DNA of 24,000 bases from the NCBI RefSeq assembly GCF_024347335.1, contig NZ_AP025464.1, positions 982,517 through 1,006,516 of the forward strand, read 5' to 3'. The DNA comes from Vibrio celticus (GTDB lineage Bacteria > Pseudomonadota > Gammaproteobacteria > Enterobacterales > Vibrionaceae). Every line of letters starts with the position of its first letter. The first letter of the stretch is position 1. Below the pieces are notes generated by a model, which was not told where the DNA came from, searched no databases, and worked only from the letters and a program-made list of their open reading frames with translations. The position numbers and the translations under genes were made by a program. Shown one piece after another: positions 5,217-22,000 of the stretch.

Positions 5217-5382
5217 CAGGGCAAGATCATGAAAACCCCTTATGAAATAAGGGATGACGTGAAGTCATATTTTCACTAATTAGATACTGAAGTCACAATA
5301 ATCTCAATACATCCAAGATCGATTTGATGATCAGATTTAGGTGTGATCATATACTGTTTTTTAACAGCAGATATTTAGCCTA

Positions 5383-6295
5383 ATGAACGGATTAAGCCTT
5401 TTGGACCATATTTCAGTTATTCGAGACCCTCGCCAAGCCTGGAAAATAGAGCACACGCTAACCGACATTATCTTCTTAACAATTGCAGCAGTGATTGCTG
5501 GTGCTGAAGGTTGGGAGGATATTGAAGATTTTGGTGAAGATAACTTGGAATGGCTTAGACAGTATGGTGATTTCAAACAAGGCATACCAGTACACGATAC
5601 CATTGCCCGAGTTATCAATCTTATTTCCGCCAAGCAACTGCAACGATGCTTTACTGCGTGGATGAAAGACTGTCATGAGGTGACTGAGGGTGAAGTGATT
5701 GCTATCGACGGCAAAACTCTCAGAGGCACATACAACAAAGACAAGCGTTGTGGTGCAATCCATATGGTTAGTGCGTTTAGTGCTGCAAATCAAGTTGTGT
5801 TAGGGCAGGTTAAAACAGCAGACAAAAGCAATGAAATCAAAGCGATCCCCGAACTGCTTGAAATGCTTTCCTTACGAGGTTGCTTAGTGACGATTGATGC
5901 TATGGGATGCCAGAAGGATATAGCTGAAAAGATAGTCGGCCAAGATGCAGATTACCTCTTAGCGGTAAAAGGTAATCAAAAACGATTGGAGCAAGCGATT
6001 AGCCAAGTCTTTAATTCTAGTATGCTTAATAGTTTTGAAGGTGATAAATACGTCACTCAAGAGAAAGGACATGGTCGTACAGAAACGCGTTTGAGTATGG
6101 TTGTTCACAATACAGATTTCTTAGGCGATATAGCGCTTGATTGGGCGGGACTCTCCACCATTGGTATGGTCGTTTCAATTCGTCAAGAAGGTGATAAGCC
6201 AGCAGAAACAATGCAAATCAAGCACTACATAAGCTCAGCAAAACTGACGGCTAAAGCTTTACTAGAGAGCACGCGAGCACATTGGAGCATTGAAA
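5383..6295 (+). CDS. ISAs1-family transposase, exon 1 (interrupted by the intron)
   Basis: The N-terminus is MNGLSLLDHISVIRDPRQAWKIEHTLTDIIFLTIAAVIAGAEGWEDIEDFG, followed by AIDGKTLRG and TIDAMGCQKDIA, all typical of ISAs1 transposases. Family-like sequence ends at …RAHWSIE and the reading then runs into intron sequence. Confidence 0.85.
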
Positions 6296-6863
6296 GTGTG
6301 CCGCAGGCACATAGGTTAGCAGCATAAGGATGTGTTTCTAGTCTTGAGCATAAGCTCATGAAGAGATGGTGGTAGGTCCACCGAAGTCTGCTGTCGGAAG
6401 CTGGCTTCAAACCACTTCAAGTGGCTGTCATTAAGAGTGATGGTCATAAGCGTTGAAGTAAAAGTACGAACTCAAGTTCGGCAGGTAGGGTACAAAGAGA
6501 TGAGTTATAGCGAACCTATGTTGACGCGTCGTAATCCAGAGACTGACATCAAAATCGAGGGCGTTTCTATCTCTCGAGATAAGTTTGCAGGTTAATTCCG
6601 AATGCTGTGTAAGCGGTGTCCGGCGTATAGTGGGCATGACTTTGTATCGGGCTCTTTGTGGGAACTGCGGGAACCAGTCATCACAATGCTAAGGAAGAAG
6701 TACAAGTAACTGAATTTATGAGTATGAGAGTACCGATGTGTGATACTGGGACGGAGCAACTCGTAGTAGTGTTGAAGTGTTTGTAATGAACATGGAGCGA
6801 AGGGGTTGCGTCAAGCTGCTTGCATGTTTAGCTCAACTACCAAATGGTAGGAGGAAGCTATAG

Positions 6864-8111
6864 ATGGAAGCAAAACCATTTACCATTTCAAAGTGGGCAG
6901 TGAAGCACGCCTACGAATTAGTTAAAGCTAATAAAGGAAGTGCAGGAGTTGATAATCAATCTATTGAAGGTTTCGAAAGAAATCTAAAAGGTAATCTTTA
7001 TAAGATCTGGAATCGATTATCTTCTGGCACCTATTTTCCACCTCCAGTTAAAGCGGTAAGTATACCGAAGAAAAGTGGAGGAGAACGGATTTTAGGTATA
7101 CCAACGGTAAGCGATCGGATCGCACAAATGGTCGTAAAACTTGAATTTGAGCCAAAGGTTGAGCGGATCTTTTTGCCAGACTCATATGGGTATAGACCTA
7201 ATAAATCAGCGCTTGATGCTATAGGTGTCACTCGTAAGCGATGTTGGAACTATAACTGGGTACTTGAGTTTGATATTAAAGGGCTGTTCGATAACATTCG
7301 GCATGATCTGTTACTTAAAGCGGTATATAAACACACCAATCTCACTTGGGTAAGGTTGTATATAGAGCGCTGGCTAGTAGCACCGATGCAAATGGAAGAT
7401 GGCGACCTCAAAACTAGGCAGATGGGGACACCGCAAGGTGGCGTTATTAGCCCTGTATTAGCGAACCTATTTCTACATTATGTTTTTGATAAATGGCTAC
7501 AAAAGCATTTCCCCAAAACATTATGGTGCCGTTATGCTGATGATGGTTTGGTTCATTGTAATACTGAAAGCGAAGCTCAGCAGATGCTTGAGGCTCTGAA
7601 AGCTCGTTTTGAGGATTGTGGACTTGAGCTCCACCCCACAAAAACCAAAATAGTATATTGTAAAGATGGGAGTAGAAAAGGTGATTCGGAACATACCAGT
7701 TTCGACTTTCTTGGCTATACCTTTATGCGTAGGGTTTGCAAAAACTGGAAACGCAATAGCTTATTTTTAAGCTTCTCGCCGGCAGTGAGCAAATCAGCAT
7801 TAAAATCAATGAGATTGAAAATTAGAAAGTTACGAGTGCGGATGAAAACAGAACTTAGCATAGCGCAAATGGCTAAGTGGTTAAACCCAATGATAAACGG
7901 GTGGATCAACTACTATGGTCGCTACTATCGCTCGGCACTGTATGGCATGTGCAGGCACGTAAATAAAGCTCTGGTTCGTTGGGCGAGACGAAAGTTTAAG
8001 CCATTACGACGTCACAAAACACAAGCAATGAGATTCTTGGAAAGGATTTCAGAGCAGAACCCCCACTTGTTTGCCCATTGGAAGCAAGGAATGTTAGGTG
8101 CGTTTGCTTGA
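6864..8111 (+). CDS. Group II intron-encoded reverse transcriptase/maturase (no endonuclease domain)
   Basis: The 415-aa ORF has RT motifs (KKSGGERILGIPTVSDRIAQ, YGYRPNKSA, FDIKGLFDNI, GTPQGGVISPVLANLFL, RYADDGLVHC). It also has a maturase X region (INGWINYYGRYY). The protein ends soon after the X domain and has no HNH or Zn-finger segment. Confidence 0.92.
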   Translation: MEAKPFTISKWAVKHAYELVKANKGSAGVDNQSIEGFERNLKGNLYKIWNRLSSGTYFPPPVKAVSIPKKSGGERILGIPTVSDRIAQMVVKLEFEPKVERIFLPDSYGYRPNKSALDAIGVTRKRCWNYNWVLEFDIKGLFDNIRHDLLLKAVYKHTNLTWVRLYIERWLVAPMQMEDGDLKTRQMGTPQGGVISPVLANLFLHYVFDKWLQKHFPKTLWCRYADDGLVHCNTESEAQQMLEALKARFEDCGLELHPTKTKIVYCKDGSRKGDSEHTSFDFLGYTFMRRVCKNWKRNSLFLSFSPAVSKSALKSMRLKIRKLRVRMKTELSIAQMAKWLNPMINGWINYYGRYYRSALYGMCRHVNKALVRWARRKFKPLRRHKTQAMRFLERISEQNPHLFAHWKQGMLGAFA

Positions 8112-8114
8112 TGG

Positions 8115-8185
8115 GAGCGGTATGAATTGAGAGGTTCACGTACCGTTCTGCGAGAGGCTGTGGGGGAAGCTCCCACGGTCTACTC
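8115..8185 (+). ncRNA. Group II intron domains V and VI
   Basis: Domain V is 8115-8148, GAGCGGTATGAATTGAGAGGTTCACGTACCGTTC. It has a 10-bp lower stem containing the AGC triad, a 2-nt bulge (8137-8138), a 4-bp upper stem and a GAGA tetraloop. Domain VI is 8152-8185, a long helix with unpaired A8182 as the candidate branch point. Confidence 0.85.
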
Positions 8186-8188
8186 ACC

Positions 8189-8406
8189 ATCAGATGCACT
8201 GGCGATTAGACGTAGGTTTTAAAGAAGATGAATGTCGGATTCGTCGAGAGCAAGCTGGTGAGAATTTAGCAGTTATAAGACATATAGCTTTAAATCTGCT
8301 GACGGAAGAAACCAGCTTCAAAGCAGGGATCAAAAGAAAGCAGAAAAAAGCAAACCGTAGCAATAGCTACCTTTCGCAAGTCCTTGCAGTACAAGGGGCT
8401 TCGTAA
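8189..8406 (+). CDS. ISAs1-family transposase, exon 2
   Basis: It reads (N)[37 protein letters not shown]…, the conserved ISAs1 C-terminal block. The stop at 8404-8406 lies inside the right inverted repeat. Exons 1 and 2 total 1131 nt, giving 376 aa. Confidence 0.85.
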
Positions 8407-8416
8407 TCTTGCCCTG

Positions 8417-8628
8417 TCCGTGACACTGCTAGGCTCACCTTCATCTAATACGCCATTATAATTGATATCTAGAAACGCGGTCGCCCCGGAAATATACCCG
8501 TCAATGGCGACACCTTGTAAGGTTCTCGTTTGAGGAGCAGGAGCACTTGTGTTGCTACCACCGCCTCCTCCGCCACAAGCCGTAAGGCAACCAGCTATAA
8601 GTGCGATAGAAATAAGCCTAAGTTTCAT
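8417..8628 (-). pseudogene. Lipoprotein gene, N-terminal portion (signal peptide and lipobox)
   Basis: The ATG at 8628 has an AGGA ribosome-binding site. The sequence MKLRLISIALIAGCLTAC-GGGGGGSN… has lipobox LTAC. Native sequence runs to …EGEPSSVTD and then enters the IS inverted repeat. The remaining residues of the 112-aa track ORF are encoded by the IS. Confidence 0.85.
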
Positions 8629-8825
8629 TCGATTAGATCCTAATGAAATACATTATAAATGGAATTGTCATTGGGGGGATGACCGGAAATGACTGTGATA
8701 GTCATAGCCAGCCATAATAGCGATTGGCATTAGAAAGAAACACGAAAGGGTGATAGCCGATTCGTGCATGTTTTCATTTTGAACAGAAACTAAAAGATAG
8801 GGAAATGGGGTTAAAAATGGACTAA

Positions 8826-10290
8826 TTACTTCTCGTTCGAAGCTATCCAAAGCTTATAAAAATCACTATAACCGGTTTGGTTAATCTCTACGCCATGAAC
8901 CTCAACACTGTTAAAAACCTTCTCTTTACCGTGAAATAACGGACAAAGTAACTTCTGTTGATAAAGCGAACCTTCAATCTCTTTCAGCTCGCTCATTGGG
9001 TCCTCGCCACTCACAGCAGCTCTAACTCTCTCGCAATGCGCCTTCATCTCAGAATTGTTGAAAATGAATCTGAGCCCAGAGGAAGCAAGTAGCCAATCGT
9101 AAAGGCCATAATCGGCTGGCTGTTCGATAACTTCTTCAATGAATAACAAGTCTGCCGACTCACTCATGGAGCTAGGGTCACTAATATTAGGAAGCTCAAT
9201 GACTTCAATCGTCACGCCAGTCTTTGCAATCGTTTGTTGCAGCCAGTCAGCCATCTCTTGAAGTAAAGGAATCGTCATTCTAGGTCGTGTTAACACAACA
9301 GTGCCGGTCAAAATAGGAATGGGATTGCTGCGTATTAATTTACTCGGCGAGAAAGACAGATCATCCGTCACCATATCAGCATCAAACTCTTTACTGCTGG
9401 ACTTGATAAACGATACCAGCCTGTCGAGTTCTTCAGGGGTGATGCCCGAGTTTTCTCTACGATTAACCGCAACATACGAAAGCGCATTGATTGTGGTTTC
9501 TTCAGCGACGCCAGATTGATTAAAACTCAGGGTGTGGTCATTTAAATCTTCTATGTCGGTGAGCGTTATCTGTTCTAACAAGGCATTTTGAGCAAAGTAA
9601 CCTCGGTGACGTTTAAGAACCAAGCGCTCTTCGCTCCAATCATCCAATGAGAAAGGACCGGTTCCGATATAGGCACTGCGCCCGCTCGAAAAATAAGTAC
9701 GCTTGCAACGATAAATAGACGCGTGAGGACTACTTAATGCATAGAGAAACATTGGGTTTGCGTGTGTTAGTTCAATAGTCAGTTGTTTATCACCCACCAC
9801 TTGAACATCACTGACCTGATCAAATAAAGATTGTACTGGCCCTTCGATATTTTTTAGCTGCAACAAACATTGAGCAACATCTTTGGCCGTTAAAGTTTCA
9901 CCGTCATGGAATAACACATTCGGTCTCAACCAAAAATGCAGAAGGCGTCCTTCCATCTTCCAATGGTGCGCGAGGCTCGCTTGAGGATTTCCCTCATGAT
10001 CTTGGACGAGTAACGTATTGTAGACACTTCTTAAGATGTGATGTTCGGCGGTTCGGTATGTTTTGGCTGGATCAAGGTTATCAACCCACGGATATTGAGT
10101 GATCAGCAAATGGTCATGTTGTTGATTGAACAAACTATGTTTTTCAGTCGCTAGCGTCAGTGCCTTTATTGCAGCATCACCATAGCTTTCTAGAAGACGA
10201 GGAATAACGTTAAAGCACCCTTGTTCTAACTGAAGCGCTAACACCTGTTCTAATGCTTCGGGAACGCTGACCAAAATTCTAAACTGGCTA
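8826..10290 (-). pseudogene. sgrR: SgrR-family transcriptional regulator, C-terminal solute-binding-like part (5' end removed by IS insertion and inversion)
   Basis: The frame is open up to the IS boundary (SQF-RILVSVPEALEQ…). The sequence resembles a family-5 periplasmic-binding-protein-like domain as found in SgrR. There is no HTH domain here. The missing N-terminus is at 15734-15934 on the other strand. Confidence 0.8.
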
Positions 10291-11677
10291 CATAGACAGG
10301 ATCTTAAGCTCTAAGCTATTTATTTAGATAGAAAAAAGGCTTCATTTATGATCAGATAATCGTCGCCAAACAAACCACCCATATCAACCGTGAAGCCGAT
10401 GACGATTATCTCCCTACAAAAGCAGTTTAAGCAATTCTTTAATGCTGATAGCCTTCAAAAAATGGCGAAAAGTACAGGACTTATGAAGCGATGTCGGGCT
10501 ATCTTACCCGACCAGCTAGTAGTAAGCCTAGTGGCCGCTTTGAGCAAAGGAAACTGCTCATCTATTGCCGATTTACTAAGGCAATTCAATGGGATGTGCT
10601 TAAGCGCTAAAAATACTGTGGCTTATAAGCCCTACCATAACCAGTTAAGAAAAGAAGAATTTCCGATATTCATGCGCCAATTGGCCATGCGAGCGATAGC
10701 TCAGTTTGCTCGCCAGCAGAGTGCCAACCTACCAGATAAACTCGCCACCTTTGATGATGTGCTGCTTCAAGATGGTAGCTCTTTCCACATTCATCGTGAC
10801 CTTTCGAACGTTTACCCGAGCCGATTTAAACGCAATCCAGCCGCAGTTGAATGCCATATGACAATGTCTTTAAAAAGCTTTTCTCCAGTCGCAATGAGCA
10901 TCAGCGCTGATACAGCATCAGAAAGAGACTTTTGCCCGCCCCAAAACAATGAGTAACAAATTGTTGTTGGCTGACGCAGGGTACCCTGACTTCCAATTCT
11001 TTACTGAGCTTGAACTGTATGGTGGTTTCTATATTTTCGAGGAGCAAAGTCCCTGAATCCTCATGTTATAGAAGCGAGAAACGGTCAGGGCCGGCATTTA
11101 TCTAAACTAGAAGGAAAGAAGCTCAAAGACATCACTCGAGGTACTAATCGCTCACAGGTACTCGACCTTAAAGTTCGTAGTGGTAAGCAAGAATTTAGAG
11201 TGGTAAGACGTTGGTTTGCCGAAGAAAAGCGATTCTGTATTTGGTTAACTAACTTGCCTTCAGGTACCTATACTGCTGATGACATAATGGCGATCTACCG
11301 CTGTCGATGGCAGGTGGAGTTGCTTTTTAAAGAATTAAAATCTCACACAAACTGGCAACGATTTGTCACCGCACAAAAGGCCATCGTTGATGGGCTTATC
11401 TGGGCCAGTTTACTCTCGCTGATCATCAGGCGCAGTACTGCGCTTCAGATAATGCCATCGGTCTCGCTGTTTAAGGCGGCAAAAAATGTGGATGTGTGGC
11501 TGTTGCCCATATTTGAATGTATCAGCCACAAGGCATGGTCAGAAATAGGTAATAAACTGGAATGGGCCTCTAGCTATATATTTAAGAACGCACAAAAGTC
11601 CGCCCAGAGGAAGTCAAAGAAAAACATCACGTTAGACGGGATTTATGCTGGTCTTAATGCTTAAGGTTCAGTCTATG
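10291..11677 (+). mobile_element. IS4-family insertion sequence, copy A (1387 bp)
   Basis: The ends are CATAGAC…GTCTATG. It is nearly identical to the reverse complement of 15935-17320; I found 2 substitutions and 1 single-nt indel. The flanking 10-mers are aaactggcta on the left and tagcggccat on the right. Confidence 0.9.
10390..11664 (+). pseudogene. IS4-family DDE transposase, copy A, broken by two frameshifts
   Basis: The first D (LLQDGSSF) is in frame 1 and ends at TAA 10954-10956. The second D (MSNKLLLADAGYPDF) is in frame 2 and ends at TGA 11054-11056. The YREK motif (YRCRWQVELLFKELK) is back in frame 1. The shifts map to a C4/A4 run near 10939-10946 and a T4 run at 11034-11037. Confidence 0.8.
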
Positions 11678-11991
11678 TAGCGGCCATAGCTTCCCTCCCA
11701 AATATTAATCATTTGAAAATGCGTTACCCTAACTCTTTTAAAGGGTCGTATTACGTCAAATGAGTAATAAAAATCAAGTTACATCACTGCTGTTAATTAT
11801 TTTTAGTTTAATCATTTGCCTAAATAGCTAGATTAGCAAGTCTGGCTCTCAATTTATCTCAAAGTTTTTACGACCACTGTTTATTAAGGCTACTTTTATA
11901 AGAGCTAGAATTAGCGTTATAAGAACTGGGCTAACCTTAAAGTGATGAGTTAATCGGTTTGTGGCTTTGTTGAATGTCGTGAGAGGGTAGA

Positions 11992-12828
11992 ATGAGAAAG
12001 TGTCGATGGTTAGTCTTATTAGTCTGTTTTGTATTCGCTGGTTGCGGGACTAAACTTGCCTACAACAATATAAGCTGGTTTGCGGTTAGCTATATTGAAG
12101 ACTTTGTTTCTCTATCCAACAGTCAAGAATCAGAGCTCGAAGAGCGCCTCGACTTATTACAGCAATGGCACAAAGAAACTCAGCTACCTCTGTATATCTC
12201 GCAATTAGAAGCGATTCAGAACGTAGATCGGTCGGATATGAATCCCGCTTTTATTGTGGGTCAAAGTGAAGAAACTAAAGAGCATATTCGCTCAATCGTT
12301 AATAAGTTCGCTCCAGATATTTACGCCTTGAGTATGCAGCTTAGCCCTGAGCAAGACAGAGAATTTTTAAAGAACTTTCGTGAAAAGCAGCAAGACTATT
12401 ATGAAGAAAGGTTGTCGTTGAACGATGAAGATTCGAGAGAGCGATACAGAACTAGAATAGAAGAGCGGGCAGAGCGGTGGTTAGGTTCGGTGTCTAAAGA
12501 ACAAAAACAGATTATTCTGGCTTGGTCTCAAGAGTGGGTAAACACCAATAACAGCTGGCGACAATATCAAAACAACACCTATCAAGAGCTAACGACGCTG
12601 ATGGCAAAGAAGAGCGACCTGCATATTGCTCAGCCGATTATCATGAAATTGCTTTTAAACAATGAAGCTTATTATCCTGATGAACTTGAGTCACAACTCA
12701 ACCAAAATATGGAAACATCAGCCAAGTTTTTAGTAGATATCGCCGCGACCAGCAGTAACAAGCAGTGGGCGTATTTTATGAATGAATTAGAAAGCCTCAA
12801 AGGAACGTTGAAGTCATTGCAAGAGTAG
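11992..12828 (+). CDS. Putative lipoprotein of unknown function (DUF6279-like)
   Basis: The 278-aa ORF has a signal peptide with lipobox FAGC (MRKCRWLVLLVCFVFAGCGTK). The rest is a charged, helical-looking body. The family name is from memory and unverified. Confidence 0.7.
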   Translation: MRKCRWLVLLVCFVFAGCGTKLAYNNISWFAVSYIEDFVSLSNSQESELEERLDLLQQWHKETQLPLYISQLEAIQNVDRSDMNPAFIVGQSEETKEHIRSIVNKFAPDIYALSMQLSPEQDREFLKNFREKQQDYYEERLSLNDEDSRERYRTRIEERAERWLGSVSKEQKQIILAWSQEWVNTNNSWRQYQNNTYQELTTLMAKKSDLHIAQPIIMKLLLNNEAYYPDELESQLNQNMETSAKFLVDIAATSSNKQWAYFMNELESLKGTLKSLQE

Positions 12829-12840
12829 AGCGTCCCTTTT

Positions 12841-12872
12841 AAAGGCTAGCGGTTATTGTCGAGCTAGCCTTT
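12841..12872. terminator. Hairpin between convergent genes (possible bidirectional terminator)
   Basis: The sequence is AAAGGCTAGCggttattgtcgaGCTAGCCTTT. It has a 10-bp perfect stem and a 12-nt loop. There is no long U-tract beyond the stem, so confidence is modest. Confidence 0.4.
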
Positions 12873-12900
12873 CATCCCACTTTAAGGTGAATTTCGGAAC

Positions 12901-13524
12901 CTAACCCCTGTTGCTCATCAGTAGTTTTGGAATCGAACCTTTGGCTGTCTTCGATATTTTCTGCATCAATTGGAAGCTCGGCTGTTGAATACCGTGGTCA
13001 CTCTGCAGCTCATCGATCATTAATAACCACAACCTTGCTGTCATTTCTGAATCGGCTAATGCTCGGTGGAAAGTGCCGTCGTTATCTATTTGCTTGAATC
13101 GAACTAGGTCGCCCAACTTATGGGTCGGAGCGTCTTGGATTAGCCGACGAGCAATCAACATTGAGCATGCAAACTGTCCATTGTAATCACGCCCAATATT
13201 GTCTAATTCTGCGTCGAGAAAGCGTTTATCAAACGAGGCATTATGAGCCACAAGCTGACTGTCTTGAATAAAGCCTGCAAACTCATCCATCACTTCACTG
13301 CAACTGGCCGCGGTACTTAGCATTCGGTTAGTAATGCCGGTGTAGCTTTCAATGAAGCCACTCACACGAAACCCTGGGTTCATGAGTTGTTGGAAGGTGT
13401 CGACGACTTCGCCGTTAACGAGTTTTACCGCACCGATCTCAATCGCTCGATCGCCCATATTGGGTGATAAGCCTGTGGTTTCGAAATCGAGAACGATAAC
13501 GGAATCTGCGGAGTTTGAAGCCAT
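12901..13524 (-). CDS. DEDDh 3'-5' exonuclease, DnaQ/epsilon-like
   Basis: The 207-aa ORF has Exo I (VLDFETTGL), Exo II (LVAHNASFDKRFL) and Exo III (HRALADSEMTARL) motifs. An AGGAA ribosome-binding site precedes the ATG. Confidence 0.88.
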   Translation of the reverse strand: MASNSADSVIVLDFETTGLSPNMGDRAIEIGAVKLVNGEVVDTFQQLMNPGFRVSGFIESYTGITNRMLSTAASCSEVMDEFAGFIQDSQLVAHNASFDKRFLDAELDNIGRDYNGQFACSMLIARRLIQDAPTHKLGDLVRFKQIDNDGTFHRALADSEMTARLWLLMIDELQSDHGIQQPSFQLMQKISKTAKGSIPKLLMSNRG

Positions 13525-13594
13525 CGTGTTTCCTAATTGCTGTTTGGGAGTATCGCTTTATATGGGGCGTTTGGTGTTGCTATGGGTAAATCCG

Positions 13595-13996
13595 TTATTT
13601 GCTAGTGCCGATAACAAGCTCAGTGTACCCCGTTGAATCGTCATGCTCTCTGTTGAAGGTCAAAGTATCGTAGCGGTGAACGATCAGTTCAGCCGTGGTT
13701 GCGATAATCGTCCCTTCAAGCAAATGCCCACCAATCACATTGCCATTTTCATCAGCAACGGATATATGAACATGCTGGTGGTTTGGGGTTAGCGTTGCCA
13801 TCACCGAGACTATTTCGAACGGAGCTTGGACGAGCTTGGTGTTGTTCGCATTAGCTAGACGAATATTGAGCTGAGAGACACAACCAACACAAGACGCGAT
13901 AGAGCCTGCCGAGATGTTGTGTGTGGTCACTAACCTTTGGATCTCAAGCTTTAGGTCTTGCCCGCGGGTTAATCTCGTTGCGATAGGAGTGATCAT
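13595..13996 (-). CDS. PPC (DUF296) domain protein
   Basis: The 133-aa ORF has the PPC-like pattern (…ISAGSIASCVGCVSQLNIRLA…HVHISVADENGNVIGGHL…). A GAGG ribosome-binding site precedes the ATG. Confidence 0.75.
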   Translation of the reverse strand: MITPIATRLTRGQDLKLEIQRLVTTHNISAGSIASCVGCVSQLNIRLANANNTKLVQAPFEIVSVMATLTPNHQHVHISVADENGNVIGGHLLEGTIIATTAELIVHRYDTLTFNREHDDSTGYTELVIGTSK

Positions 13997-14031
13997 CTTA
14001 TTGCCTCAGCGTTATATGTATTTCAAAGAAC

Positions 14032-14059
14032 AAAACGAAGCCACATAGGGCTTCGTTTT
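14032..14059 (-). terminator. Rho-independent terminator downstream of the rhlE-like gene
   Basis: The sequence AAAACGAAGCCacatagGGCTTCGTTTT has an 11-bp stem and a 6-nt loop, with T-rich sequence on both sides. Confidence 0.6.
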
Positions 14060-14129
14060 ATTTTCATTTTGGCTAACGCGACTTTTCTTTTGGTTAATGC
14101 AACTTTGCATTTTCTGTCGCTGAAATTAC

Positions 14130-15326
14130 TTAGTCTTGTTGCTGTTCTCTTTTCTTCTTAGGAACGAAGTTCAATACTGAGATTGGCACTTCTTTGCGTG
14201 GTTCGAAACCTTCAACAACGCGACGTTCAATCAAGTGACCCAGACGCTTTTCAATAATGCACAGGTTTTTGAAGTTATCTTTCGATAGGAAAGAGATCGC
14301 TTCGCCAGATGCATCAGCACGGCCTGTACGACCAATACGGTGAACATAGTCATCTGCAGGGAAAGGCATGTCGTAGTTCACTACGCGGCTTAGGTTGTCG
14401 ATATCGATACCACGAGCAGCAACCCCCGTCGCGACTAAGTATTTTAGGCGGCCTTTCTTGAAGTCAGCCAAGATCTTTTCACGAATTGCTTGGCTACGTC
14501 CACTGTGGAAAGCTTCAGCTTGAATGCCACGTTTCTCAAGTTGAGCAACCAACTTAGCCGCGCCATGTTTAGTTTCGATAAATATAAGCGCTTGGTCCCA
14601 GTTACCTTCGGTAATCATGTGGCTCAATAGTGCTGACTTACGGTCTTTATCTACGGTTACCAACCATTGCTCAATGTTCGCTTTAGAAGCGTCAGTTTTG
14701 GCAATTGAAATCTCTTCTGCTTCACTGATAGCACTTTTCGCTAGCGCACGCACTGGCGTTGAAAGCGTTGCTGAGAACAGTAAGTTTTGGATGTCTTGTG
14801 GTAAACGAGCAATGATCTTGTTGATGTCTTCAATGAAACCCATGTCTAGCATGCGGTCTGCTTCATCTAGAACCAGTACTTCCACTTCATCAAAGTGAAC
14901 AGCACGTTGACCGTACATGTCGATCAAACGACCTGGTGTTGCCACAAGAATGTCGACACCTTCAATCAAGCGATCTTTCTGGTGTTGGTAAGATACGCCA
15001 CCGTACATCGCTAGTGATGTTAGGTTTAGGAACTTCGCGTACTTAGTGATGTTCTGTTCAACCTGAATCGCAAGCTCACGAGTTGGTGTCAGAATAACAG
15101 CGCGAATACGTTTTTTACGTTGTGTTTCACCTTTACTTAGCATTTCTAAGATAGGGAGAACAAAGCTCGCAGTTTTACCTGTACCTGTTTGTGCTGCCGC
15201 AATAAGGTTCTTACCAGAAAGTACAATCGGAATTGCTTTTTCTTGAATAGAGGTTGGCTTTTCATAGCCTTGTTTTGCAACGGCTTTAACAATAGGTGAG
15301 CTTAATCCAAGCTTGGAAAATGGCAT
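14130..15326 (-). CDS. rhlE: DEAD-box ATP-dependent RNA helicase, RhlE-like
   Basis: The 398-aa ORF has a Q-motif (GYEKPTSIQ), motif I (AQTGTGKT), DEAD (VLDEADRM), SAT, and motif VI (HRIGRTGRA). Confidence 0.9.
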   Translation of the reverse strand: MPFSKLGLSSPIVKAVAKQGYEKPTSIQEKAIPIVLSGKNLIAAAQTGTGKTASFVLPILEMLSKGETQRKKRIRAVILTPTRELAIQVEQNITKYAKFLNLTSLAMYGGVSYQHQKDRLIEGVDILVATPGRLIDMYGQRAVHFDEVEVLVLDEADRMLDMGFIEDINKIIARLPQDIQNLLFSATLSTPVRALAKSAISEAEEISIAKTDASKANIEQWLVTVDKDRKSALLSHMITEGNWDQALIFIETKHGAAKLVAQLEKRGIQAEAFHSGRSQAIREKILADFKKGRLKYLVATGVAARGIDIDNLSRVVNYDMPFPADDYVHRIGRTGRADASGEAISFLSKDNFKNLCIIEKRLGHLIERRVVEGFEPRKEVPISVLNFVPKKKREQQQD

Positions 15327-15733
15327 AAGTTTCTCGGTATGATTTGGCTAAATAGCGATGGAAAGGTTTAACAATCTTATACAAGGATAAGATTAATGGC
15401 GGCATTCTACCATGTTGCTTGTATACCGCTAGTAACATAGACACTTTAGTTGGATAATACTGGCTCAATAGCACAACGATAAGGCAGGAATGTAGAGCAA
15501 ATAACAAATAGCAAATCCGGTGGAGGATTAATCTCCCACTTATTTTTGCCACTGAATATGCACGATCAGTGATTATTTTGTTTGCTAAAAGAGGTGTTTA
15601 TCAATTAAGTTGGATCTTGATATTATTTATATCAACAGTTTCATACAGCATATTCCAACTTGAATGAGTAAATAGACCTCCCATTTGGGTTACAGCTATT
15701 CTCGTTCCACTAGACGCTTGATTCGGATATCCA

Positions 15734-15934
15734 TTGAACGACGCTAACTTACGTAGACTTCAGCAGCTTATTGCAAAGTATGAATTAGGTGAAGAGTATC
15801 ACCTAACGATCGATGATCTAGAGCACTCGCTATCGACTTCTCGCAGAAACACTTCGATCATTCTTAAATGCTTATCGGAATATCGCTGGATTTGTTGGAT
15901 TCCGTCCAAAGGAAGAGGGAAGCTTAGCCAGTTT
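15734..15934 (+). pseudogene. sgrR: SgrR-family regulator, N-terminal DNA-binding (SgrR_N/HTH) part
   Basis: The only possible start is TTG at 15734, because an in-frame stop lies at 15719-15721. The sequence NDANLRRLQQLIAKYELGEEYHLTIDDLEHSLSTSRRNTSIILKCLSEYRWICWIPSKGRGKLSQF resembles the SgrR N-terminal domain. The frame then runs into the IS end, and the tail HRLNLKH* is IS-encoded. This fragment and the 10280-8826 part total 1656 nt, giving 551 aa in frame. Confidence 0.8.
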
Positions 15935-17320
15935 CATAGACTGAACCTTAAGCATTAAGACCAGCATAAATCCCGTCTAACGTGATGTTTTTCTTTGACT
16001 TCCTCTGGGCGGACTTTTGTGCGTTCTTAAATATATAGCTAGAGGCCCATTCCAGTTTATTGCCTATTTCTGACCATGCCTTGTGGCTGATACATTCAAA
16101 TATGGGCAACAGCCACACATCCACATTTTTTGCCGCCTTAAACAGCGAGACCGATGGCATTATCTGAAGCGCAGTACTGCGCCTGATGATCAGCGAGAGT
16201 AAACTGGCCCAGATAAGCCCATCAACGATGGCCTTTTGTGCGGTGACAAATCGTTGCCAGTTTGTGTGAGATTTTAATTCTTTAAAAAGCAACTCCACCT
16301 GCCATCGACAGCGGTAGATCGCCATTATGTCATCAGCAGTATAGGTACCTGAAGGCAAGTTAGTTAACCAAATACAGAATCGCTTTTCTTCGGCAAACCA
16401 ACGTCTTACCACTCTAAATTCTTGCTTACCACTACGAACTTTAAGGTCGAGTACCTGTGAGCGATTAGTACCTCGAGTGATGTCTTTGAGCTTCTTTCCT
16501 TCTAGTTTAGATAAATGCCGGCCCTGACCGTTTCTCGCTTCTATAACATGAGGATTCAGGGACTTTGCTCCTCGAAAATATAGAAACCACCATACAGTTC
16601 AAGCTCAGTAAAGAATTGGAAGTCAGGGTACCCTGCGTCAGCCAACAACAATTTGTTACTCATTGTTTTGGGGCGGGCAAAAGTCTCTTTCTGATGCTGT
16701 ATCAGCGCTGATGCTCATTGCGACTGGAGAAAAGCTTTTTAAAGACATTGTCATATGGCATTCAACTGCGGCTGGATTGCGTTTAAATCGGCTCGGGTAA
16801 ACGTTCGAAAGGTCACGATGAATGTGGAAAGAGCTACCATCTTGAAGCAGCACATCATCAAAGGTGGCGAGTTTATCTGGTAGGTTGGCACTCTGCTGGC
16901 GAGCAAACTGAGCTATCGCTCGCATGGCCAATTGGCGCATGAATATCGGAAATTCTTCTTTCTTAACTGGTTATGGTAGGGCTTATAAGCCACAGTATCT
17001 TTAGCGCTTAAGCACATCCCATTGAATTGCCTTAGTAAATCGGCAATAGATGAGCAGTTTCCTTTGCTCAAAGCGGCCACTAGGCTTACTACTAGCTGGT
17101 CGGGTAAGATAGCCCGACATCGCTTCATAAGTCCTGTACTTTTCGCCATTTTTTGAAGGCTATCAGCATTAAAGAATTGCTTAAACTGCTTTTGTAGGGA
17201 GATAATCGTCATCGGCTTCACGGTTGATATGGGTGGTTTGTTTGGCGACGATTATCTGATCATAAATGAAGCCTTTTTTCTATCTAAATAAATAGCTTAG
17301 AGCTTAAGATCCTGTCTATG
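15935..17320 (-). mobile_element. IS4-family insertion sequence, copy B (1386 bp), inverted relative to copy A
   Basis: It is the reverse complement of copy A apart from c16999 (Asn to Asp), g16062 (synonymous) and a T3 run at 16959-16961 where copy A has A4. In the element's own orientation the flanking 10-mers are tagcggccat on the left and aaactggcta on the right, the swap of copy A. Confidence 0.9.
15948..17221 (-). pseudogene. IS4-family DDE transposase, copy B, broken by three frameshifts
   Basis: It has the same two frameshifts as copy A. An extra 1-nt deletion in the A-run splits the first ORF into 102-aa and 94-aa pieces. Confidence 0.8.
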
Positions 17321-17494
17321 ATGGCCGCTATTCCTGATCATACAAGCGATTTAGAATATGAGCTTTGTTATTTTGACGATGGATCAATAACCACAATCAC
17401 GATATTCGTTCACAATCGACAGGAAGCGATGACTTGGTATCTTAGCGAAGGAAAACATATCAACGATCTTTATTCGATAAGACCCGATGAATAA
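17321..17494 (+). CDS. Small hypothetical protein (57 aa), below the ORF-track size cutoff
   Basis: It reads ATGGCCGCTATT…GATGAATAA, giving MAAIPDHTSDLEYELCYFDDGSITTITIFVHNRQEAMTWYLSEGKHINDLYSIRPDE. The start codon lies inside the IS target duplication. The pre-insertion upstream sequence, now at 11688-11700 in reverse complement, reads GGGAGGGAAGCT-ATG, a good ribosome-binding site. There is no homology support. Confidence 0.35.
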   Translation: MAAIPDHTSDLEYELCYFDDGSITTITIFVHNRQEAMTWYLSEGKHINDLYSIRPDE

Positions 17495-17634
17495 TGCTTT
17501 GGTATAGAGGACTAGGTCGATAAACCTAAGAGAAGAAACTTGAGTGGCATTTTGTGGAACACCCTTTACTGCAATGCCATTAATTAGCAATGTCATTAAT
17601 TAGACATATCGCAGCAAAGGGGTTCAGTCTCGAA

Positions 17635-19014
17635 TTACTTCAGGATTCGGGCGCGGAATTGACGACCCTTCATTTTACCTGATTCGATTTTGTTCAGTGC
17701 TTTCTTAGCCACAGATCTTTCTACCGCTACGTAAGCACGCATTGCGAACAGATTGATCTTACCTACTGATTTACCATCAATGCCGCCTTGGCCCGTCAAT
17801 GCGCCAAGAATATCACCAGCACGAAGCTTAGCTTTCTTACCGCCATCAATCTGGATGGTAACCATGTTCGAGTAGTACGGCTTAGCAATTGGTTTTGCTG
17901 GAAGCTCAGATGGCTCGATTGGCATGTCCATGTACTCATCGATTTGAGCAACACGGTACATCTCTTTTTCGCTAAAGAAGCTGATCGCTACTCCTTTGCT
18001 TCCTGCACGACCAGTACGACCAATGCGGTGTACGTGAACTTCAGGGTCGCGAGACAATTCAAAGTTGAACACAGCATCTAGGTTATCAACATCAAGACCA
18101 CGAGCCGCAACGTCTGTCGCCACTAGAATCGAGATGGTTTTGTTTGAGAACTGAACCAAAGCTTGGTCACGTTCACGCTGTTCCATGTCACCATGAAGTT
18201 CGATAACGCTGAAACCACGGTGGCTTAGCTCATCGTTTACGTTCTGCACTTCTTTCTTAGTGTTACAGAACACAACCGCAGATTCCGGTTGATGATGAAG
18301 TAACAGCAACTCTAGAGCGTCATCACGAGCTTCAGAACCTTCTAACTTGTAGAAGTGTTGTTGGATGCTTGAGTGGTCATGTGTTGATTCAACCTTCACC
18401 ATTTCTGGATTGCGCATGATGCGGTCTGCAACAGATTTGATCTGTTTAGGGAAAGTCGCACTGAATAGTAGAGTTTGGCGTTCTTTTGGCGCCGCTTCAA
18501 TCACAGCATCCAAAGCGTCTTGGAAGCCCATTTCTAGCATGCGGTCAGCTTCATCTAACACAAGTGTGTTCAGCTCAGACAGGTCAATACGACCTTTCTC
18601 TAGGTGATCAAGAATACGACCAGGTGTGCCTACAAGAATGTGTGCGCCATGCTCTAGTGAACCAATCTGAGGGCCCATTGGCATACCGCCACATAGTGTC
18701 AGCACTTTAATGTTGTGAATACCACGAGCAAGAGTACGAATCTCTTTTGCTACTTGGTCTGCAAGCTCACGAGTCGGACATAACACTAAAGACTGAACAC
18801 GGAAACGCTTAACGCGTAGGTTCTGCAGCACGCCTAAACCGAAAGCAGCTGTTTTACCTGAACCCGTTTTACCCTGACCGATAACGTCCTTGCCATTTAG
18901 GATAGTAGGAAGACTTAACGCTTGGATCGGCGTCATTTCAGTATAACCAAGAGAATCTAACGTGTTTAGAAGCTCTGGTTTAAGGGCGATTGAAGAGAAT
19001 TTTGAAGTGCTCAA
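17635..19014 (-). CDS. dbpA: ATP-dependent RNA helicase DbpA (DEAD-box with C-terminal 23S rRNA-binding domain)
   Basis: The 459-aa ORF has GYTEMTPIQ, GKTGSGKT, VLDEADRM, SAT and HRIGRTGRAG motifs. The DbpA-type C-terminal domain reads IQIDGGKKAKLRAGDILGAL…FRARILK. The start is apparently TTG at 19014. Confidence 0.9.
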   Translation of the reverse strand: MSTSKFSSIALKPELLNTLDSLGYTEMTPIQALSLPTILNGKDVIGQGKTGSGKTAAFGLGVLQNLRVKRFRVQSLVLCPTRELADQVAKEIRTLARGIHNIKVLTLCGGMPMGPQIGSLEHGAHILVGTPGRILDHLEKGRIDLSELNTLVLDEADRMLEMGFQDALDAVIEAAPKERQTLLFSATFPKQIKSVADRIMRNPEMVKVESTHDHSSIQQHFYKLEGSEARDDALELLLLHHQPESAVVFCNTKKEVQNVNDELSHRGFSVIELHGDMEQRERDQALVQFSNKTISILVATDVAARGLDVDNLDAVFNFELSRDPEVHVHRIGRTGRAGSKGVAISFFSEKEMYRVAQIDEYMDMPIEPSELPAKPIAKPYYSNMVTIQIDGGKKAKLRAGDILGALTGQGGIDGKSVGKINLFAMRAYVAVERSVAKKALNKIESGKMKGRQFRARILK

Positions 19015-19195
19015 TGGAAATATCCAACTGGTGAAAAACAGAGTGCATTATGAGTGTTTTTGAAAATTATTCCACCTTAATCACAGTTTTGAACGAACAA
19101 ACAACCATAACAAATATTTATCAGTTGGCAGTGTTAATTACAATTAAAATACGGGATACCATAAAAGTGTAATTTACCCCTGAGGATTGAACAGT

Positions 19196-19618
19196 ATGAA
19201 AAGATCACCGTTACAAAAAGGCTTCACACTTTTGGAACTGATCGTCGTTATTGTCATACTCGCCGTTATCGCTGTGGTCGCCGCTCCACGCTTTTTGTCT
19301 ATTGCAGATGATGCAAGAGAAGCGACTAGCCGAGCACTGTTTGACAACTTCCGTGCCGGAGCAGAGATCTATCAAGGAGCTTGTTTAGCTCGAGGCGGAG
19401 ATGTAACCGAATTGCGAGGACAGGATACTTCAGATTTCAATATCGACGGCATTTACTCGAACTTCTCGGGCAGTTGCTACCCAGTGCGTAATAGCAATGC
19501 AGGTGTGCGTAGAGATATTAACAATGCGAGAGGCTGTTACGAACTGTTCCAAGACATCGTCAACAGCGATCATTTCGAAGATGTTAACTTTGGTAGTGGC
19601 GGCGGCTTTGTTGCGTAA
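19196..19618 (+). pseudogene. Type IV pilin-like (prepilin N-terminal methylation domain) gene, 3' end replaced by the IS inverted repeat
   Basis: The ATG at 19196 has a GAGGA ribosome-binding site. The sequence MKRSPLQKG/FTLLELIVVIVILAVIAVVAAP is a class III signal. From 19604 the last codons (GFVA*) are encoded by the IS903-like terminal repeat. Confidence 0.75.
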
Positions 19619-20657
19619 TTAAGTTTAGAGATAGAGCCACCCCGTTTCGCGTATTTCTTAGTCAATACGACAAGTTTCAGGCATACCTAACCCAGTAAGC
19701 TTGTTCAACGCTTTTATCATCGCGTAAGTTTCACCCACCTGTGCATTGTAATTTCTTAAGCTCAGTTGCCCTCCTAGCAACTGTTTAACTCGATACATCA
19801 CTGTTTCTGAGAGTGAACGTTTGTGGTATCCATACCGCTCTTTCCAATACTTATTTGAGCCGTATAATTTCTGGCAACCCACGGCGAGATTTCGAGGGTG
19901 ACTACGTTCCCAGAAGGATGCCCCTTATCTTGGGGGAATAAGCGCAATGGCTCCCTTAATCTTAATAGCAGCGTGACACGCTCTCGTGTCGTAAGCGCCA
20001 TCACCAGACACCTCAAGGATACTTCGGCGTGTTTGTTTCAGTAAGTTAGGGAGTACTTCTCCATCTGTAACCCTCGATAAACTTAGCTCGGCGGCAATGA
20101 TCTCATGAGTGTTGGTATCGACGGCAATATGAAGCTTTCGCCAGACTCTACGCTTGCCATCCGTCCCATGTTTTTTGACTTTCCATTCACCTTCGCCATA
20201 AACCTTAAGGCCAGTAGCATCAATAGCTAGGTGCTGTATAGCTCCTCTCGTTTTAGTCCTAAATGAAACCTCAACTTGCTTGGCTCTACGACTGATGCAG
20301 GTGTCATGCGGACAACTTAACGGTACATTGGCTAACCTAAATATCGAGTCGATAAATCCTTGAAGCGCTCTCAATGGCATAGAAAAAACTCGTTTCACCA
20401 TGAGTGCTGTCGTGATAGCTAAATCACTGAACCGACGCGGCCTCCCGCGCTTATTCTGTTTACTTTGCGCCCACCCGCTTATTGCTTCTTCATCAATCCA
20501 AAAGGTCAGAGAGCCACGGTTAATGAGTGATTGGTTGTATTGCTTCCAGTTGGTTGTTTTGTAACGAGGCTTAGGCATAGGGCTACGAGAGAGGGTGGAG
20601 GTAGCTGATCAGATCGTAGGTTCTTGATTTAGTTCCATTGAATTACGCAACAAAGCC
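19604..20657 (-). mobile_element. IS5-family, IS903-group insertion sequence (1054 bp)
   Basis: It has 17-bp perfect terminal inverted repeats, GGCTTTGTTGCGTAATT at 19604-19620 and the reverse complement at 20641-20657. It encodes an IS903-like transposase. The flanking 9-mers agtggcggc and caaagcatg differ, so there is no target duplication. Confidence 0.9.
19658..20578 (-). pseudogene. IS903-like transposase with an in-frame TAA stop
   Basis: The sequence reads MPKPRYKTTNWKQYNQSLINRGSLTFWIDEE…ALIPPR-TAA(19927-19925)-GASFWERSHPRNLAV…MYRVKQLLGG…GMPETCRID. Both parts are in the same frame. The total of 307 codons matches IS903 Tnp, and the stop sits where Lys is expected (IPPRKGA). Confidence 0.85.
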
Positions 20658-20913
20658 CAAAGCATGTCGAGAAAAGGTAACTGCTTGGATAATGCTGTTG
20701 CTGAAAACTTTTTTGCTTTACTCAAAACCGAGATGTATCACAACCAAAGCTTTGAAGATGCAGATGCTCTGATAGAACAAATTAAAGAATACATCGAGTA
20801 CTACAATACCAAACGTATAAAAGTGAAACTAAAAGGCCTGACTCCGATAGAATATCAAACTCAGGCCTTGAAAGCCGCTTAACAGAAATGTCCAACTTTA
20901 TGGGGTCACTTCA
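20658..20913 (+). mobile_element. IS3-family element remnant (3' end of orfB plus right terminal repeat)
   Basis: It begins abruptly at the IS903-like boundary with QSMSRKGNCLDNAVAENFFALLKTEMY…YYNTKRIKVKLKGLTPIEY, the C-terminus of an IS3 integrase-core protein. It ends …TGTCCAACTTTATGGGGTCACTTCA at 20913, which looks like an IS3-type TG…CA terminus. Confidence 0.8.
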
Positions 20914-20942
20914 TGTTGGCTGGCTTTCTTATTTCTATTTGA

Positions 20943-21377: not shown

Positions 21378-21420
21378 TGTGTTAACCTCAAATAATCATA
21401 ACGGGTGTTACTGAACTGGA

Positions 21421-21516
21421 TAGAGTCTTTTCACTAAGCTGAATCTTATTCTTGTCATTAAGAAGAATCTTGCAGCTAAGTAGAGTCTTGCAACTAAGCA
21501 GAATCTTTTAGCAGAA
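21421..21516. repeat. Array of five imperfect tandem direct repeats of about 18 bp
   Basis: The units are tagagtcttttcactaag (21421), ctgaatctt-attctt-gtcattaag (21439, 24 nt), aagaatcttgcagctaag (21463), tagagtcttgcaactaag (21481) and cagaatcttttagcagaa (21499). The consensus is nAGArTCTTnnnnCTAAG. Units 3 and 4 match at 15 of 18 positions. Confidence 0.75.
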
Positions 21517-21978: not shown

Positions 21979-22000
21979 GCCTGATTTGAGGCAATCAGGC
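21979..22000 (-). terminator. Hairpin overlapping the ABC-transporter stop codon (weak terminator candidate)
   Basis: The sequence GCCTGATTtgaggcAATCAGGC has an 8-bp stem. Only a poor T-tract follows on the minus strand. Confidence 0.3.

What the first reader, a model, noticed from the sequence alone, without database searches (positions are those of the whole stretch)
8826..17330. 4.26-kb chromosomal inversion between inverted IS4-family copies, proven by swapped target-site duplications, splits sgrR onto both strands
Copy A (10291-11677, +) is flanked by aaactggcta on its left and tagcggccat on its right. Copy B (15935-17320, -), read in its own orientation, is flanked by tagcggccat on its left and aaactggcta on its right. 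Each 10-bp duplication is therefore shared between the two copies rather than within one copy. This is the expected product of homologous recombination between inverted copies after two independent insertions. Consistent with this, the SgrR-family N-terminal domain (15734-15934, +, ending …GRGKLSQF) and the rest of the gene (10280-8826, -, starting RILVSVPEALEQ…) join in frame to 551 aa once segment 11678-15934 is flipped back. The flip reverses the DUF6279-like lipoprotein, exonuclease, PPC and rhlE-like genes relative to the flanks. The copies are still nearly identical, so the segment may continue to flip within a population.
Basis: seen in the sequence. Interest (0 to 1): 0.8.

Follow-up and report, generated by a model that had tools for sequence, protein, structure and literature searches.

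The report
IS-bounded 4.3-kb chromosomal inversion in Vibrio
Two nearly identical copies of a jumping gene (an IS4-family insertion sequence) sit in opposite orientation in a Vibrio celticus chromosome, and the 4.3 kb between them has been flipped, splitting an already broken regulator gene across both strands. It is a clean, real example of a well-known kind of rearrangement.

Summary
Two IS4-family copies lie at 10291-11677 (+) and 15935-17320 (-). They differ by 2 substitutions and 1 indel, and each carries one copy of AAACTGGCTA and one of TAGCGGCCAT.

IS-free relatives settle the history. Vibrio coralliirubri (L005/L006) and other Splendidus-clade strains (L001-L004, L008) have each 10-mer once. 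They have the rhlE-like/PCC/exonuclease/DUF6279 block in the opposite orientation. Where the gene is present, it is an intact 551-aa SgrR-family gene. The rejoined window halves match that protein at 97% identity with no gaps.

So the inversion is real, derived, and bounded by the IS copies. The most likely route is two insertions followed by homologous recombination. A one-step duplicative inversion leaves the same footprint and cannot be excluded, but IS4 elements are cut-and-paste.

The regulator is inactivated by the IS insertion in either orientation, so nothing suggests a functional switch.

One extra: both target sites carry AGCTTCCCTC just beyond the duplication. Sixteen insertion sites of this IS group show an AGCTT target-arm preference, which partly explains this.

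This is a textbook phenomenon and a new instance of it. Interest is low.

The parts
8826..10280 (-). 3' part of the SgrR-family gene (codons 68-551 plus stop). It has no promoter or native start.
   Evidence: Collinear with L005 12066-10192. The 482-aa ORF from the internal TTG equals WP_065677711.1 of Vibrio celticus.
10281..10290 (+). Target-site duplication 'a' (AAACTGGCTA), left flank of IS copy A
   Evidence: Single copy in IS-free L005 at 10192-10201.
10291..11677 (+). IS4-family insertion sequence, copy A (1387 bp). It has imperfect terminal inverted repeats, CATAGAC...CTTAAGC. The transposase frame is broken between about 10930 and 11036.
   Evidence: PF01609; NF033592, 238.8 bits against a cutoff of 115. 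YREK motif YRCRWQVELLFKELK at 11296-11340.
11678..11687 (+). Target-site duplication 't' (TAGCGGCCAT), right flank of copy A
   Evidence: Single copy in L001 (13639-13648) and L005 (5313-5322).
11678..15934 (.). The inverted segment (4257 bp)
   Evidence: blastn: window 11678-15438 matches L001 13648-9889 reversed, while both flanks match forward. The converse holds with L005.
11688..11697 (+). AGCTTCCCTC, native sequence next to duplication 't'. Its reverse complement, GAGGGAAGCT, is the Shine-Dalgarno region of the 57-aa ORF. That region is now separated from the ORF.
11992..12828 (+). DUF6279 lipoprotein gene (inverted)
12901..13524 (-). RNase_T-type 3'-5' exonuclease gene (inverted)
13595..13996 (-). 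PCC (PPC) domain protein gene (inverted)
14130..15326 (-). RhlE-like DEAD-box helicase gene (inverted)
15734..15934 (+). 5' part of the SgrR-family gene (codons 1-67, TTG start), carried with its upstream region inside the inverted segment
   Evidence: Collinear with L005 9773-10201.
15915..15924 (-). AGCTTCCCTC, native sgrR coding sequence (encodes part of GRGKL) next to duplication 'a'
15925..15934 (-). Target-site duplication 'a' (AAACTGGCTA on the minus strand), right flank of copy B
15935..17320 (-). IS4-family insertion sequence, copy B (1386 bp). It has the same frame breaks as copy A plus a 1-nt deletion in an A run.
17321..17330 (-). Target-site duplication 't' (TAGCGGCCAT on the minus strand, ATGGCCGCTA on the plus strand), left flank of copy B
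17321..17494 (+). Conserved 57-aa ORF. Its ATG lies inside duplication 't', and the IS cut it off from its ribosome-binding site.
   Evidence: 57-aa gene called in relatives; translation, upstream GGGAGGGAAGCTATG in L001
17635..19014 (-). dbpA-type DEAD-box helicase gene. This is the unrearranged right flank.

Best explanation
The window comes from chromosome 2 of Vibrio celticus. It holds a real, lineage-specific inversion of 4257 bp (11678-15934), and both breakpoints are copies of one IS4-family insertion sequence in opposite orientation.

Most likely history:
1. One copy inserted into codons 65-68 of an SgrR-family regulator gene and duplicated AAACTGGCTA.
2. A second copy inserted in inverted orientation about 4.3 kb away and duplicated ATGGCCGCTA. 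This was probably a local hop, with the donor site restored from the sister chromosome. The target was the start codon of a 57-aa ORF between the DUF6279 gene and dbpA.
3. Host (RecA-type) homologous recombination between the two 1.39-kb inverted copies flipped the DNA between them. Each IS now carries one duplication from each site.

The insertions, the duplications and the inversion are shown. The order of events and the recombination step are inferred.

The regulator was inactivated by the insertion itself. The inversion only moved its first 67 codons and promoter 5.4 kb away onto the other strand, and reversed four housekeeping-type genes.
For: The IS copies and the exchanged 10-bp flanks are confirmed.

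IS-free V. coralliirubri L005/L006 have each 10-mer once. They carry an intact 551-aa gene and have the segment in the opposite orientation to its flanks. The same orientation and a single-copy TAGCGGCCAT occur in L001-L004 and L008.

The rejoined protein is 97% identical to P0001 with no gaps, and SgrR_N spans the junction.

The element is IS4 family and has the Y(2)R(3)E(6)K motif. It makes 10-bp duplications elsewhere too: L010, L011, L020 and L031. IS4-family elements are described as cut-and-paste with duplications of about 10 bp (PMC2266710). This favours separate insertions plus recombination over a replicative one-step event.

Three independent draft assemblies of V. celticus break at the same IS junction, AAACTGGCTA|IS left end (L017-L019).
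Against: No genome with the un-inverted two-IS intermediate, or with only one of the two IS copies, was found.

The footprint is identical to that of a one-step duplicative inversion.

Both copies share the same three homopolymer frame breaks, so they are each other's close relatives. That fits a local duplication of either kind.

As written, neither copy encodes an intact transposase. The second insertion would therefore have needed transposase in trans, or the frame breaks are sequencing errors.

The orientation across a 1.4-kb repeat rests on an assembly I could not check against reads.
Confidence: 0.7

Rival explanations
1. One-step duplicative inversion. A single resident IS copy at either site attacked the other site on the same chromosome 'in trans'. 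This could be truly replicative, or could use ends from two sister chromatids. In one event it copied the IS, inverted the DNA in between, and left the new 10-bp duplication in inverted orientation.
For: The predicted footprint is exactly what is seen: copy A flanked by a/t', copy B flanked by t'/a. It is the diagnostic used for IS26 and Tn4401 inversions (PMC4471558). The two copies share three private-looking frame breaks and differ at only three positions. No intermediate state was found.
Against: The element is IS4 family with the YREK motif. This family is described as cut-and-paste (PMC2266710), with no Shapiro intermediate. From my own knowledge, duplicative inversions by IS10/IS50-type elements are rare. 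Three differences between the copies need time, or different source copies.
Confidence: 0.2
2. Assembly artefact. Both IS copies are real, but the assembler chose the wrong orientation for the segment between two inverted repeats, or picked one state of a mixed population.
For: Short reads cannot orient a segment bounded by 1.4-kb inverted repeats. All four IS/flank junctions are the same in both orientations (my analysis). The draft assemblies break at the IS.
Against: The contig runs through both IS copies, and the source record appears to be a 2.02-Mb replicon. The copies are resolved as distinct sequences with three differences. Homopolymer-length noise among IS copies of this genome hints at long-read data, and such reads would span the whole 7-kb structure.
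Confidence: 0.05
3. The IS-segment-IS unit is a composite transposon (like Tn5 or Tn10) that inserted here as one piece.
For: Two inverted IS4-family copies flanking 4.3 kb have the architecture of Tn5 and Tn10.
Against: The outer flanks do not match: AAACTGGCTA on the left against ATGGCCGCTA on the right. The four inner genes are native at this very position in seven IS-free relatives. The inner segment also carries the missing 5' end of the interrupted gene.
Confidence: 0.01

Closest known systems
Chromosomal inversions made by homologous recombination between inverted IS copies. From my own knowledge these are widely reported, for example for IS481 in Bordetella pertussis and for IS1/IS150 in E. 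coli evolution lines. The logic that IS ends then map to distant loci is used in PMC12065110.
   Same: Two inverted copies of one IS lie at both breakpoints. Each IS lacks a matched duplication but shares its flanks reciprocally with the other copy. IS-free relatives are collinear with the opposite orientation.
   Different: Nothing in kind. This one is small (4.3 kb), in V. celticus chromosome 2, and involves an IS4-family element not named here. The recombination step itself is inferred.
Intramolecular replicative transposition 'in trans' by IS26 or Tn4401, giving an inversion plus a new IS copy (He et al. 2015, PMC4471558)
   Same: Identical end product and identical pattern of inverted target duplications.
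   Different: Those elements are replicative (IS6 and Tn3 families). This one is IS4 family, described as cut-and-paste (PMC2266710).
IS4-family elements of the ISApu2-like group (NCBI name for P0101, about 52% identical; the closest intact relative is P0023 from V. aestuarianus, 94%)
   Same: Single DDE transposase of about 422 aa, YREK motif, CAT... termini, 10-bp duplications, and target-arm preference, as reported for some IS4 subgroups (PMC2266710).
   Different: Both window copies have the transposase frame broken in homopolymer runs. ISfinder was not available, so the subgroup and formal IS name were not assigned.
Tn5/Tn10-type composite transposons
   Same: Inverted IS4-family copies bracket a few kb of passenger DNA. 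In principle the outer (left) ends could mobilise the unit.
   Different: It did not arrive as a unit: the outer flanks are unmatched and the passenger genes are native. No evidence that it moves.

Membership tests
IS4 family insertion sequence | DDE transposase matching IS4-family profiles | tested here: met
   PF01609 at E = 5.7e-18. NF033592 at 238.8 bits against a cutoff of 115. Both were run on a conceptually frame-repaired translation. Intact 422-aa homologs are named IS4 family.
IS4 family insertion sequence | Y(2)R(3)E(6)K motif after the catalytic E (PMC2266710) | tested here: met
   YRCRWQVELLFKELK, read directly in the ORF at 11296-11340.
IS4 family insertion sequence | Target duplication of about one helical turn (about 10 bp) | tested here: met
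   Both 10-mers are single copy in IS-free relatives. Matched 10-bp duplications flank related copies in L010, L011, L020 and L031.
IS4 family insertion sequence | Single uninterrupted transposase ORF | tested here: not met
   In these two copies the frame is lost between about 10930 and 11036, with a stop at 10954-10956. This stretch includes the LLLADAGY region. Copy B has a further 1-nt deletion. All the changes are in homopolymer runs. Other V. celticus copies vary at the same run, so sequencing error is possible. This concerns the integrity of these copies, not the family assignment.
IS4 family insertion sequence | Cut-and-paste chemistry through hairpin intermediates | not testable with these tools
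   Known for IS10/IS50. Stated as a family trait in PMC2266710.
Inversion by homologous recombination between inverted IS copies | The same IS, inverted, at both breakpoints, with reciprocally exchanged target duplications | tested here: met
Inversion by homologous recombination between inverted IS copies | Collinear IS-free relatives carry the segment in the other orientation | tested here: met
   L001-L006 and L008.
Inversion by homologous recombination between inverted IS copies | Existence of the two-IS un-inverted intermediate, or recA dependence | not testable with these tools
   All four junctions are identical in both states. The drafts break at the IS, and the complete V. celticus genome is not readable through the tools.
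Replicative intramolecular transposition in trans (IS26/Tn3 type) | New duplication in inverted orientation on the two IS copies, with an inverted segment between them | tested here: met
   Same footprint (PMC4471558).
Replicative intramolecular transposition in trans (IS26/Tn3 type) | The element belongs to a replicative family | tested here: not met
   It is assigned to the IS4 family, described as cut-and-paste (PMC2266710). The mechanism of this particular element is untested.
SgrR-family transcriptional regulator | SgrR_N winged-helix domain followed by an SBP_bac_5 solute-binding domain, about 550 aa | tested here: met
   PF12793 (aa 10-106) and PF00496 on the rejoined 551-aa protein. 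It is 97% identical to P0001, which has the same domains.
SgrR-family transcriptional regulator | Ortholog of E. coli SgrR with a divergent sgrS small RNA | tested here: not met
   Rfam gathering-threshold scan of the window found only the two group II intron matches. Neighbours differ from the E. coli locus.
Composite transposon inserted as a unit | Matched target duplication at the two outer ends, with foreign passenger DNA | tested here: not met
   The outer flanks are AAACTGGCTA and ATGGCCGCTA. The passenger genes are native in relatives.

The most novel reading that the evidence does not exclude
An IS4-family element normally classed as cut-and-paste made this inversion in a single duplicative intramolecular step. 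It was guided by a strong asymmetric target-arm motif (N10 followed by AGCTTCCCTC), present at both sites in the same register and orientation relative to the IS right end. If so, this IS group would have both an unexpected replicative-like pathway and unusually long target recognition. Alternatively, the pair now acts as a nascent composite transposon or as a flip-flopping segment in the population.
Probability: 0.12. Interest if true: 0.45.

Novelty: new member of a known kind. Interest (0 to 1): 0.2.

Why it matters
It is a tidy, fully reconstructable example of how IS elements reshape a Vibrio chromosome. The ancestral state can be read from sister species, both target sites are known to the base, and the gene that was lost is identified.

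It matters mainly for annotation. The two sgrR-like fragments are one pseudogene, and the four genes between them are inverted rather than differently organised. It is also a reminder that exchanged target duplications do not by themselves distinguish recombination from one-step transposition.

The modest new information is the AAGCT-N10-AGCTT-like target preference of this IS group.

Tried and rejected
1. Window's own genome and other copies of the same IS variant. I tried exact look-ups of the 188-aa IS ORF and of P0074 and P0148. None is on record. I therefore could not tabulate duplications for other V. celticus copies, nor test whether the copy-specific variants pre-exist.

2. Genome and metagenome scans with the IS right end. 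These found only 84-89% relatives in other species, and no V. celticus.

3. Microhomology or template-switch origin using the shared AGCTTCCCTC. Rejected. The junctions lie exactly at the IS ends, and a true 10-bp duplication of the second site exists 10 bp away from the shared motif.

4. The relatives, not the window, are inverted. Rejected. At least three lineages share the other orientation, and the gene is intact there.

5. Composite transposon insertion. Rejected on unmatched outer flanks.

6. Site-specific invertase switch. The segment holds only four Pfam-assigned housekeeping-type genes and no recombinase.

7. GC skew across the segment. Too noisy to date the inversion.

8. The P0007 look-up. 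P0007 is not the window's own fragment. It is a 77%-identical ortholog called short. It did supply another IS-free synteny example.


Full report
**Observation**

The repeat finder reports one inverted repeat, split by a 1-nt indel: 10291-10652/16959-17320 and 10651-11697/15915-16961. No other long repeat occurs in the 24 kb. Aligning 10261-11720 with the reverse complement of 15892-17350 shows two elements of 1387 and 1386 bp. They differ by two transitions and one base in an A run.

The element ends are CATAGACAGGATCTTAAGC... and ...GCTTAAGGTTCAGTCTATG. These are imperfect terminal inverted repeats.

Flanks read directly:
- Copy A: AAACTGGCTA|IS|TAGCGGCCAT.
- Copy B, in its own orientation: TAGCGGCCAT|IS|AAACTGGCTA.

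**The split gene**

Joining 15734-15934(+) to the reverse complement of 8826-10280 gives 1656 nt in frame, which is 551 codons plus a stop. Pfam finds SgrR_N over residues 10-106, across the junction at residue 67/68, and then SBP_bac_5. The joined protein is 97% identical over all 551 residues, without a gap, to an intact protein of Vibrio coralliirubri, P0001. Intact 551-aa orthologs are recorded in V. tasmaniensis, V. artabrorum, V. gigantis, V. crassostreae and V. splendidus.

The 482-aa ORF left in the window is WP_065677711.1 of Vibrio celticus, seen on a 2,016,907-bp contig. The window is therefore from V. celticus chromosome 2.

**Comparison with relatives: the decisive test**

An exact look-up of the RhlE-like protein returned four IS-free loci, L001-L004. 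Their gene order is FAD-oxidoreductase(+), DEAD(+), PCC(+), RNase_T(+), DUF6279(-), 57-aa ORF(+), DbpA(-).

blastn of the window against L001:

| Window | L001 | Direction |
|---|---|---|
| 1-3913 | 5969-9884 | forward |
| 11678-15438 | 13648-9889 | reversed |
| 17321-19091 | 13639-15409 | forward |

L001 13639-13648 is therefore matched by both copies of TAGCGGCCAT.

The V. coralliirubri loci L005/L006 carry the intact regulator gene. blastn of the window against L005:

| Window | L005 | Direction |
|---|---|---|
| 8416-10290 | 12066-10192 | reversed |
| 11678-15494 | 5313-9128 | forward |
| 15505-15934 | 9773-10201 | forward |
| 17321-19602 | 5322-3042 | reversed |

Both 10-mers are single-copy there, at 10192-10201 and 5313-5322. 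The un-interrupted sequences read ...TTCTAAACTGGCTAAGCTTCCCTCTTCC... and ...CAGGAATAGCGGCCATAGCTTCCCTCCC.... L008, a third lineage, agrees.

From this I conclude three things:
- The two 10-mers are genuine target duplications.
- The inversion is in the window's lineage.
- Flipping 11678-15934 restores the ancestral order, with sgrR-like(-) divergent from rhlE-like(+).

**The element**

The frame-repaired translation matches PF01609 and NCBIfam NF033592 'IS4 family transposase' at 238.8 bits against a cutoff of 115. It contains YRCRWQVELLFKELK, the Y(2)R(3)E(6)K signature of the family (PMC2266710). Intact homologs are 422 aa. The closest is 94% identical, from V. aestuarianus, and ISApu2-type elements are about 52% identical.

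Related copies (84-89% DNA identity) in other vibrios and in metagenomes carry matched 10-bp duplications. These are L010 AACGCTTATT, L011 TGTATCACTA, L020 ATTGCCAATC and L031 TGAGGTGTTT. The family-typical duplication is about 10 bp (PMC2266710).

In both window copies the transposase frame is lost between about 10930 and 11036, with a stop at 10954-10956. Copy B has one more 1-nt deletion. Every one of these changes sits in a homopolymer run. ORF fragments from other copies in the V. celticus genome imply T5 and T6 at a run that is T4 here. The breaks may therefore be long-read consensus errors in a multi-copy repeat rather than real decay. I cannot decide which.

**Mechanism**

*What is shown.* There were two transposase-made insertions, each with an exact IS end and a 10-bp staggered duplication. 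The DNA between them is reversed.

*What is inferred.* How the reversal happened is inferred. Homologous recombination between two inverted copies after two separate insertions gives A = a/t' and B = t'/a. So does a single intramolecular transposition 'in trans', the footprint used to diagnose IS26 and Tn4401 inversions (PMC4471558). The swapped duplications therefore do not prove the two-step route, contrary to the finding's title.

*Why I favour two steps.* I put the two-step route at about 0.7, because IS4-family elements are described as cut-and-paste (PMC2266710). A plausible path is a local hop with sister-chromatid repair of the donor site, followed by RecA recombination across 1.39 kb of 99.8% identity. 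That needs nothing unusual. I give the one-step route about 0.2, an orientation error in the assembly about 0.05, and the remaining alternatives about 0.01 each. All four IS/flank junctions are the same in both orientations. Draft assemblies that break at the IS (L017-L019) confirm the insertion but not the orientation.

*Rejected routes.* A composite-transposon insertion is excluded by the unmatched outer flanks and the native passenger genes. A microhomology or template-switch origin is excluded by the exact IS ends and the true duplication.

**Consequences**

The regulator is broken by the IS in either orientation. The inversion only moves codons 1-67 and the promoter region to 15734-15934 on the other strand.

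The second insertion hit the start codon of a conserved 57-aa ORF (17321-17494). It separated that ORF from its ribosome-binding site, GGGAGGGAAGCT, which now lies at 11688-11699 in reverse complement.

No junction differs between the two orientations, so nothing suggests a phase-variable switch. Further flipping is plausible from repeat length and identity, but it is untested.

**The shared 10-mer**

Exact AGCTTCCCTC occurs only twice in the window. Both occurrences are at +11 to +20 from an IS right end, and both are native sequence in the IS-free relatives.

Across 16 right flanks of this IS group:

| Position from IS right end | Commonest base | Count |
|---|---|---|
| +11 | A | 14/16 |
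| +12 | G | 9/16 |
| +13 | C | 7/16 |
| +14 | T | 8/16 |
| +15 | T | 10/16 |

L031 reads AGCTTAACTC at these positions. Left arms mirror the pattern, with T at -11 in 8/11 and G at -13 in 6/11.

The group therefore prefers roughly AAGCT-N10-AGCTT. This kind of target-arm specificity is noted for some IS4 subgroups (PMC2266710). It explains the first five shared bases. The remaining CCCTC is either coincidence (about 1 in 1000) or finer specificity. A census of the copies in the V. celticus genome would settle it.

**Verdict**

The finding is correct and cleanly documented. It is a new instance of a textbook process, not a new kind of thing.

Noticed in passing
window 11688-11697 and 15915-15924; L005 5323-5332 and 10182-10191: The 10 bp just beyond each target duplication, on the IS right-end side, are identical (AGCTTCCCTC). 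They are native in IS-free relatives. Sixteen insertion sites of this IS group give an AGCTT right-arm and ..GCT left-arm preference. This explains half of the match.
   Followed up: partly
window 5217-8415: An ISAs1-family element (transposase 5383-6327 plus a C-terminal remnant at 8194-8406; ends CAGGGCAAGAT.../...ATCTTGCCCTG). It is inserted with a duplication of TCCGTGACAC into the 486-aa lipoprotein gene downstream of the regulator. That gene is split into 8290-8628 and 3958-5181.
   Followed up: partly
window ~6297-8190: A group II intron lies inside the ISAs1 transposase gene, so this is a mobile element nested in a mobile element. RT/maturase is at 6864-8111 (TIGR04416). Rfam D1-D4 matches 6368-6486, and domain V/VI matches 8113-8188.
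   Followed up: partly
window 10927-11040 and 10644-10660 / 16950-16965: All transposase frame breaks are single-base changes in homopolymer runs. ORF fragments from other V. celticus copies imply T5 or T6 where these copies have T4. This suggests residual long-read consensus errors in repeats rather than real pseudogenisation.
   Followed up: partly
window 15494-15505 vs L005 9128-9773: A 223-aa nitroreductase gene lies between the rhlE-like gene and the regulator in V. coralliirubri. It is absent from the window, and also from L008.
   Followed up: no
window 3914-10280 plus 15439-15934 vs L001 9884-9889: The whole block carrying the SgrR-family gene and the 486-aa lipoprotein gene is absent from strains L001-L004. 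Those strains share an identical RhlE-like protein with the window. This is a presence/absence polymorphism at the same spot.
   Followed up: no
window 17321-17494 (+): A conserved 57-aa ORF of unknown function. Its ATG lies in the target duplication. It is intact but now directly abuts the IS left end, without its Shine-Dalgarno sequence.
   Followed up: partly
L016 2960-4348 (Vibrio thalassae); also L012, L027, L029, L032: Full-length related IS copies whose two 10-bp flanks do not match (for example ATTATCGTTT against TGGGGCGGAT in L016). This hints at further IS-mediated rearrangements, or at chimeric contigs, elsewhere.
   Followed up: no
window 19092-24000: Collinearity with L001-L004 and L008 ends at 19091, and with L005 at 19602. 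The region to the right of dbpA differs between strains.
   Followed up: no
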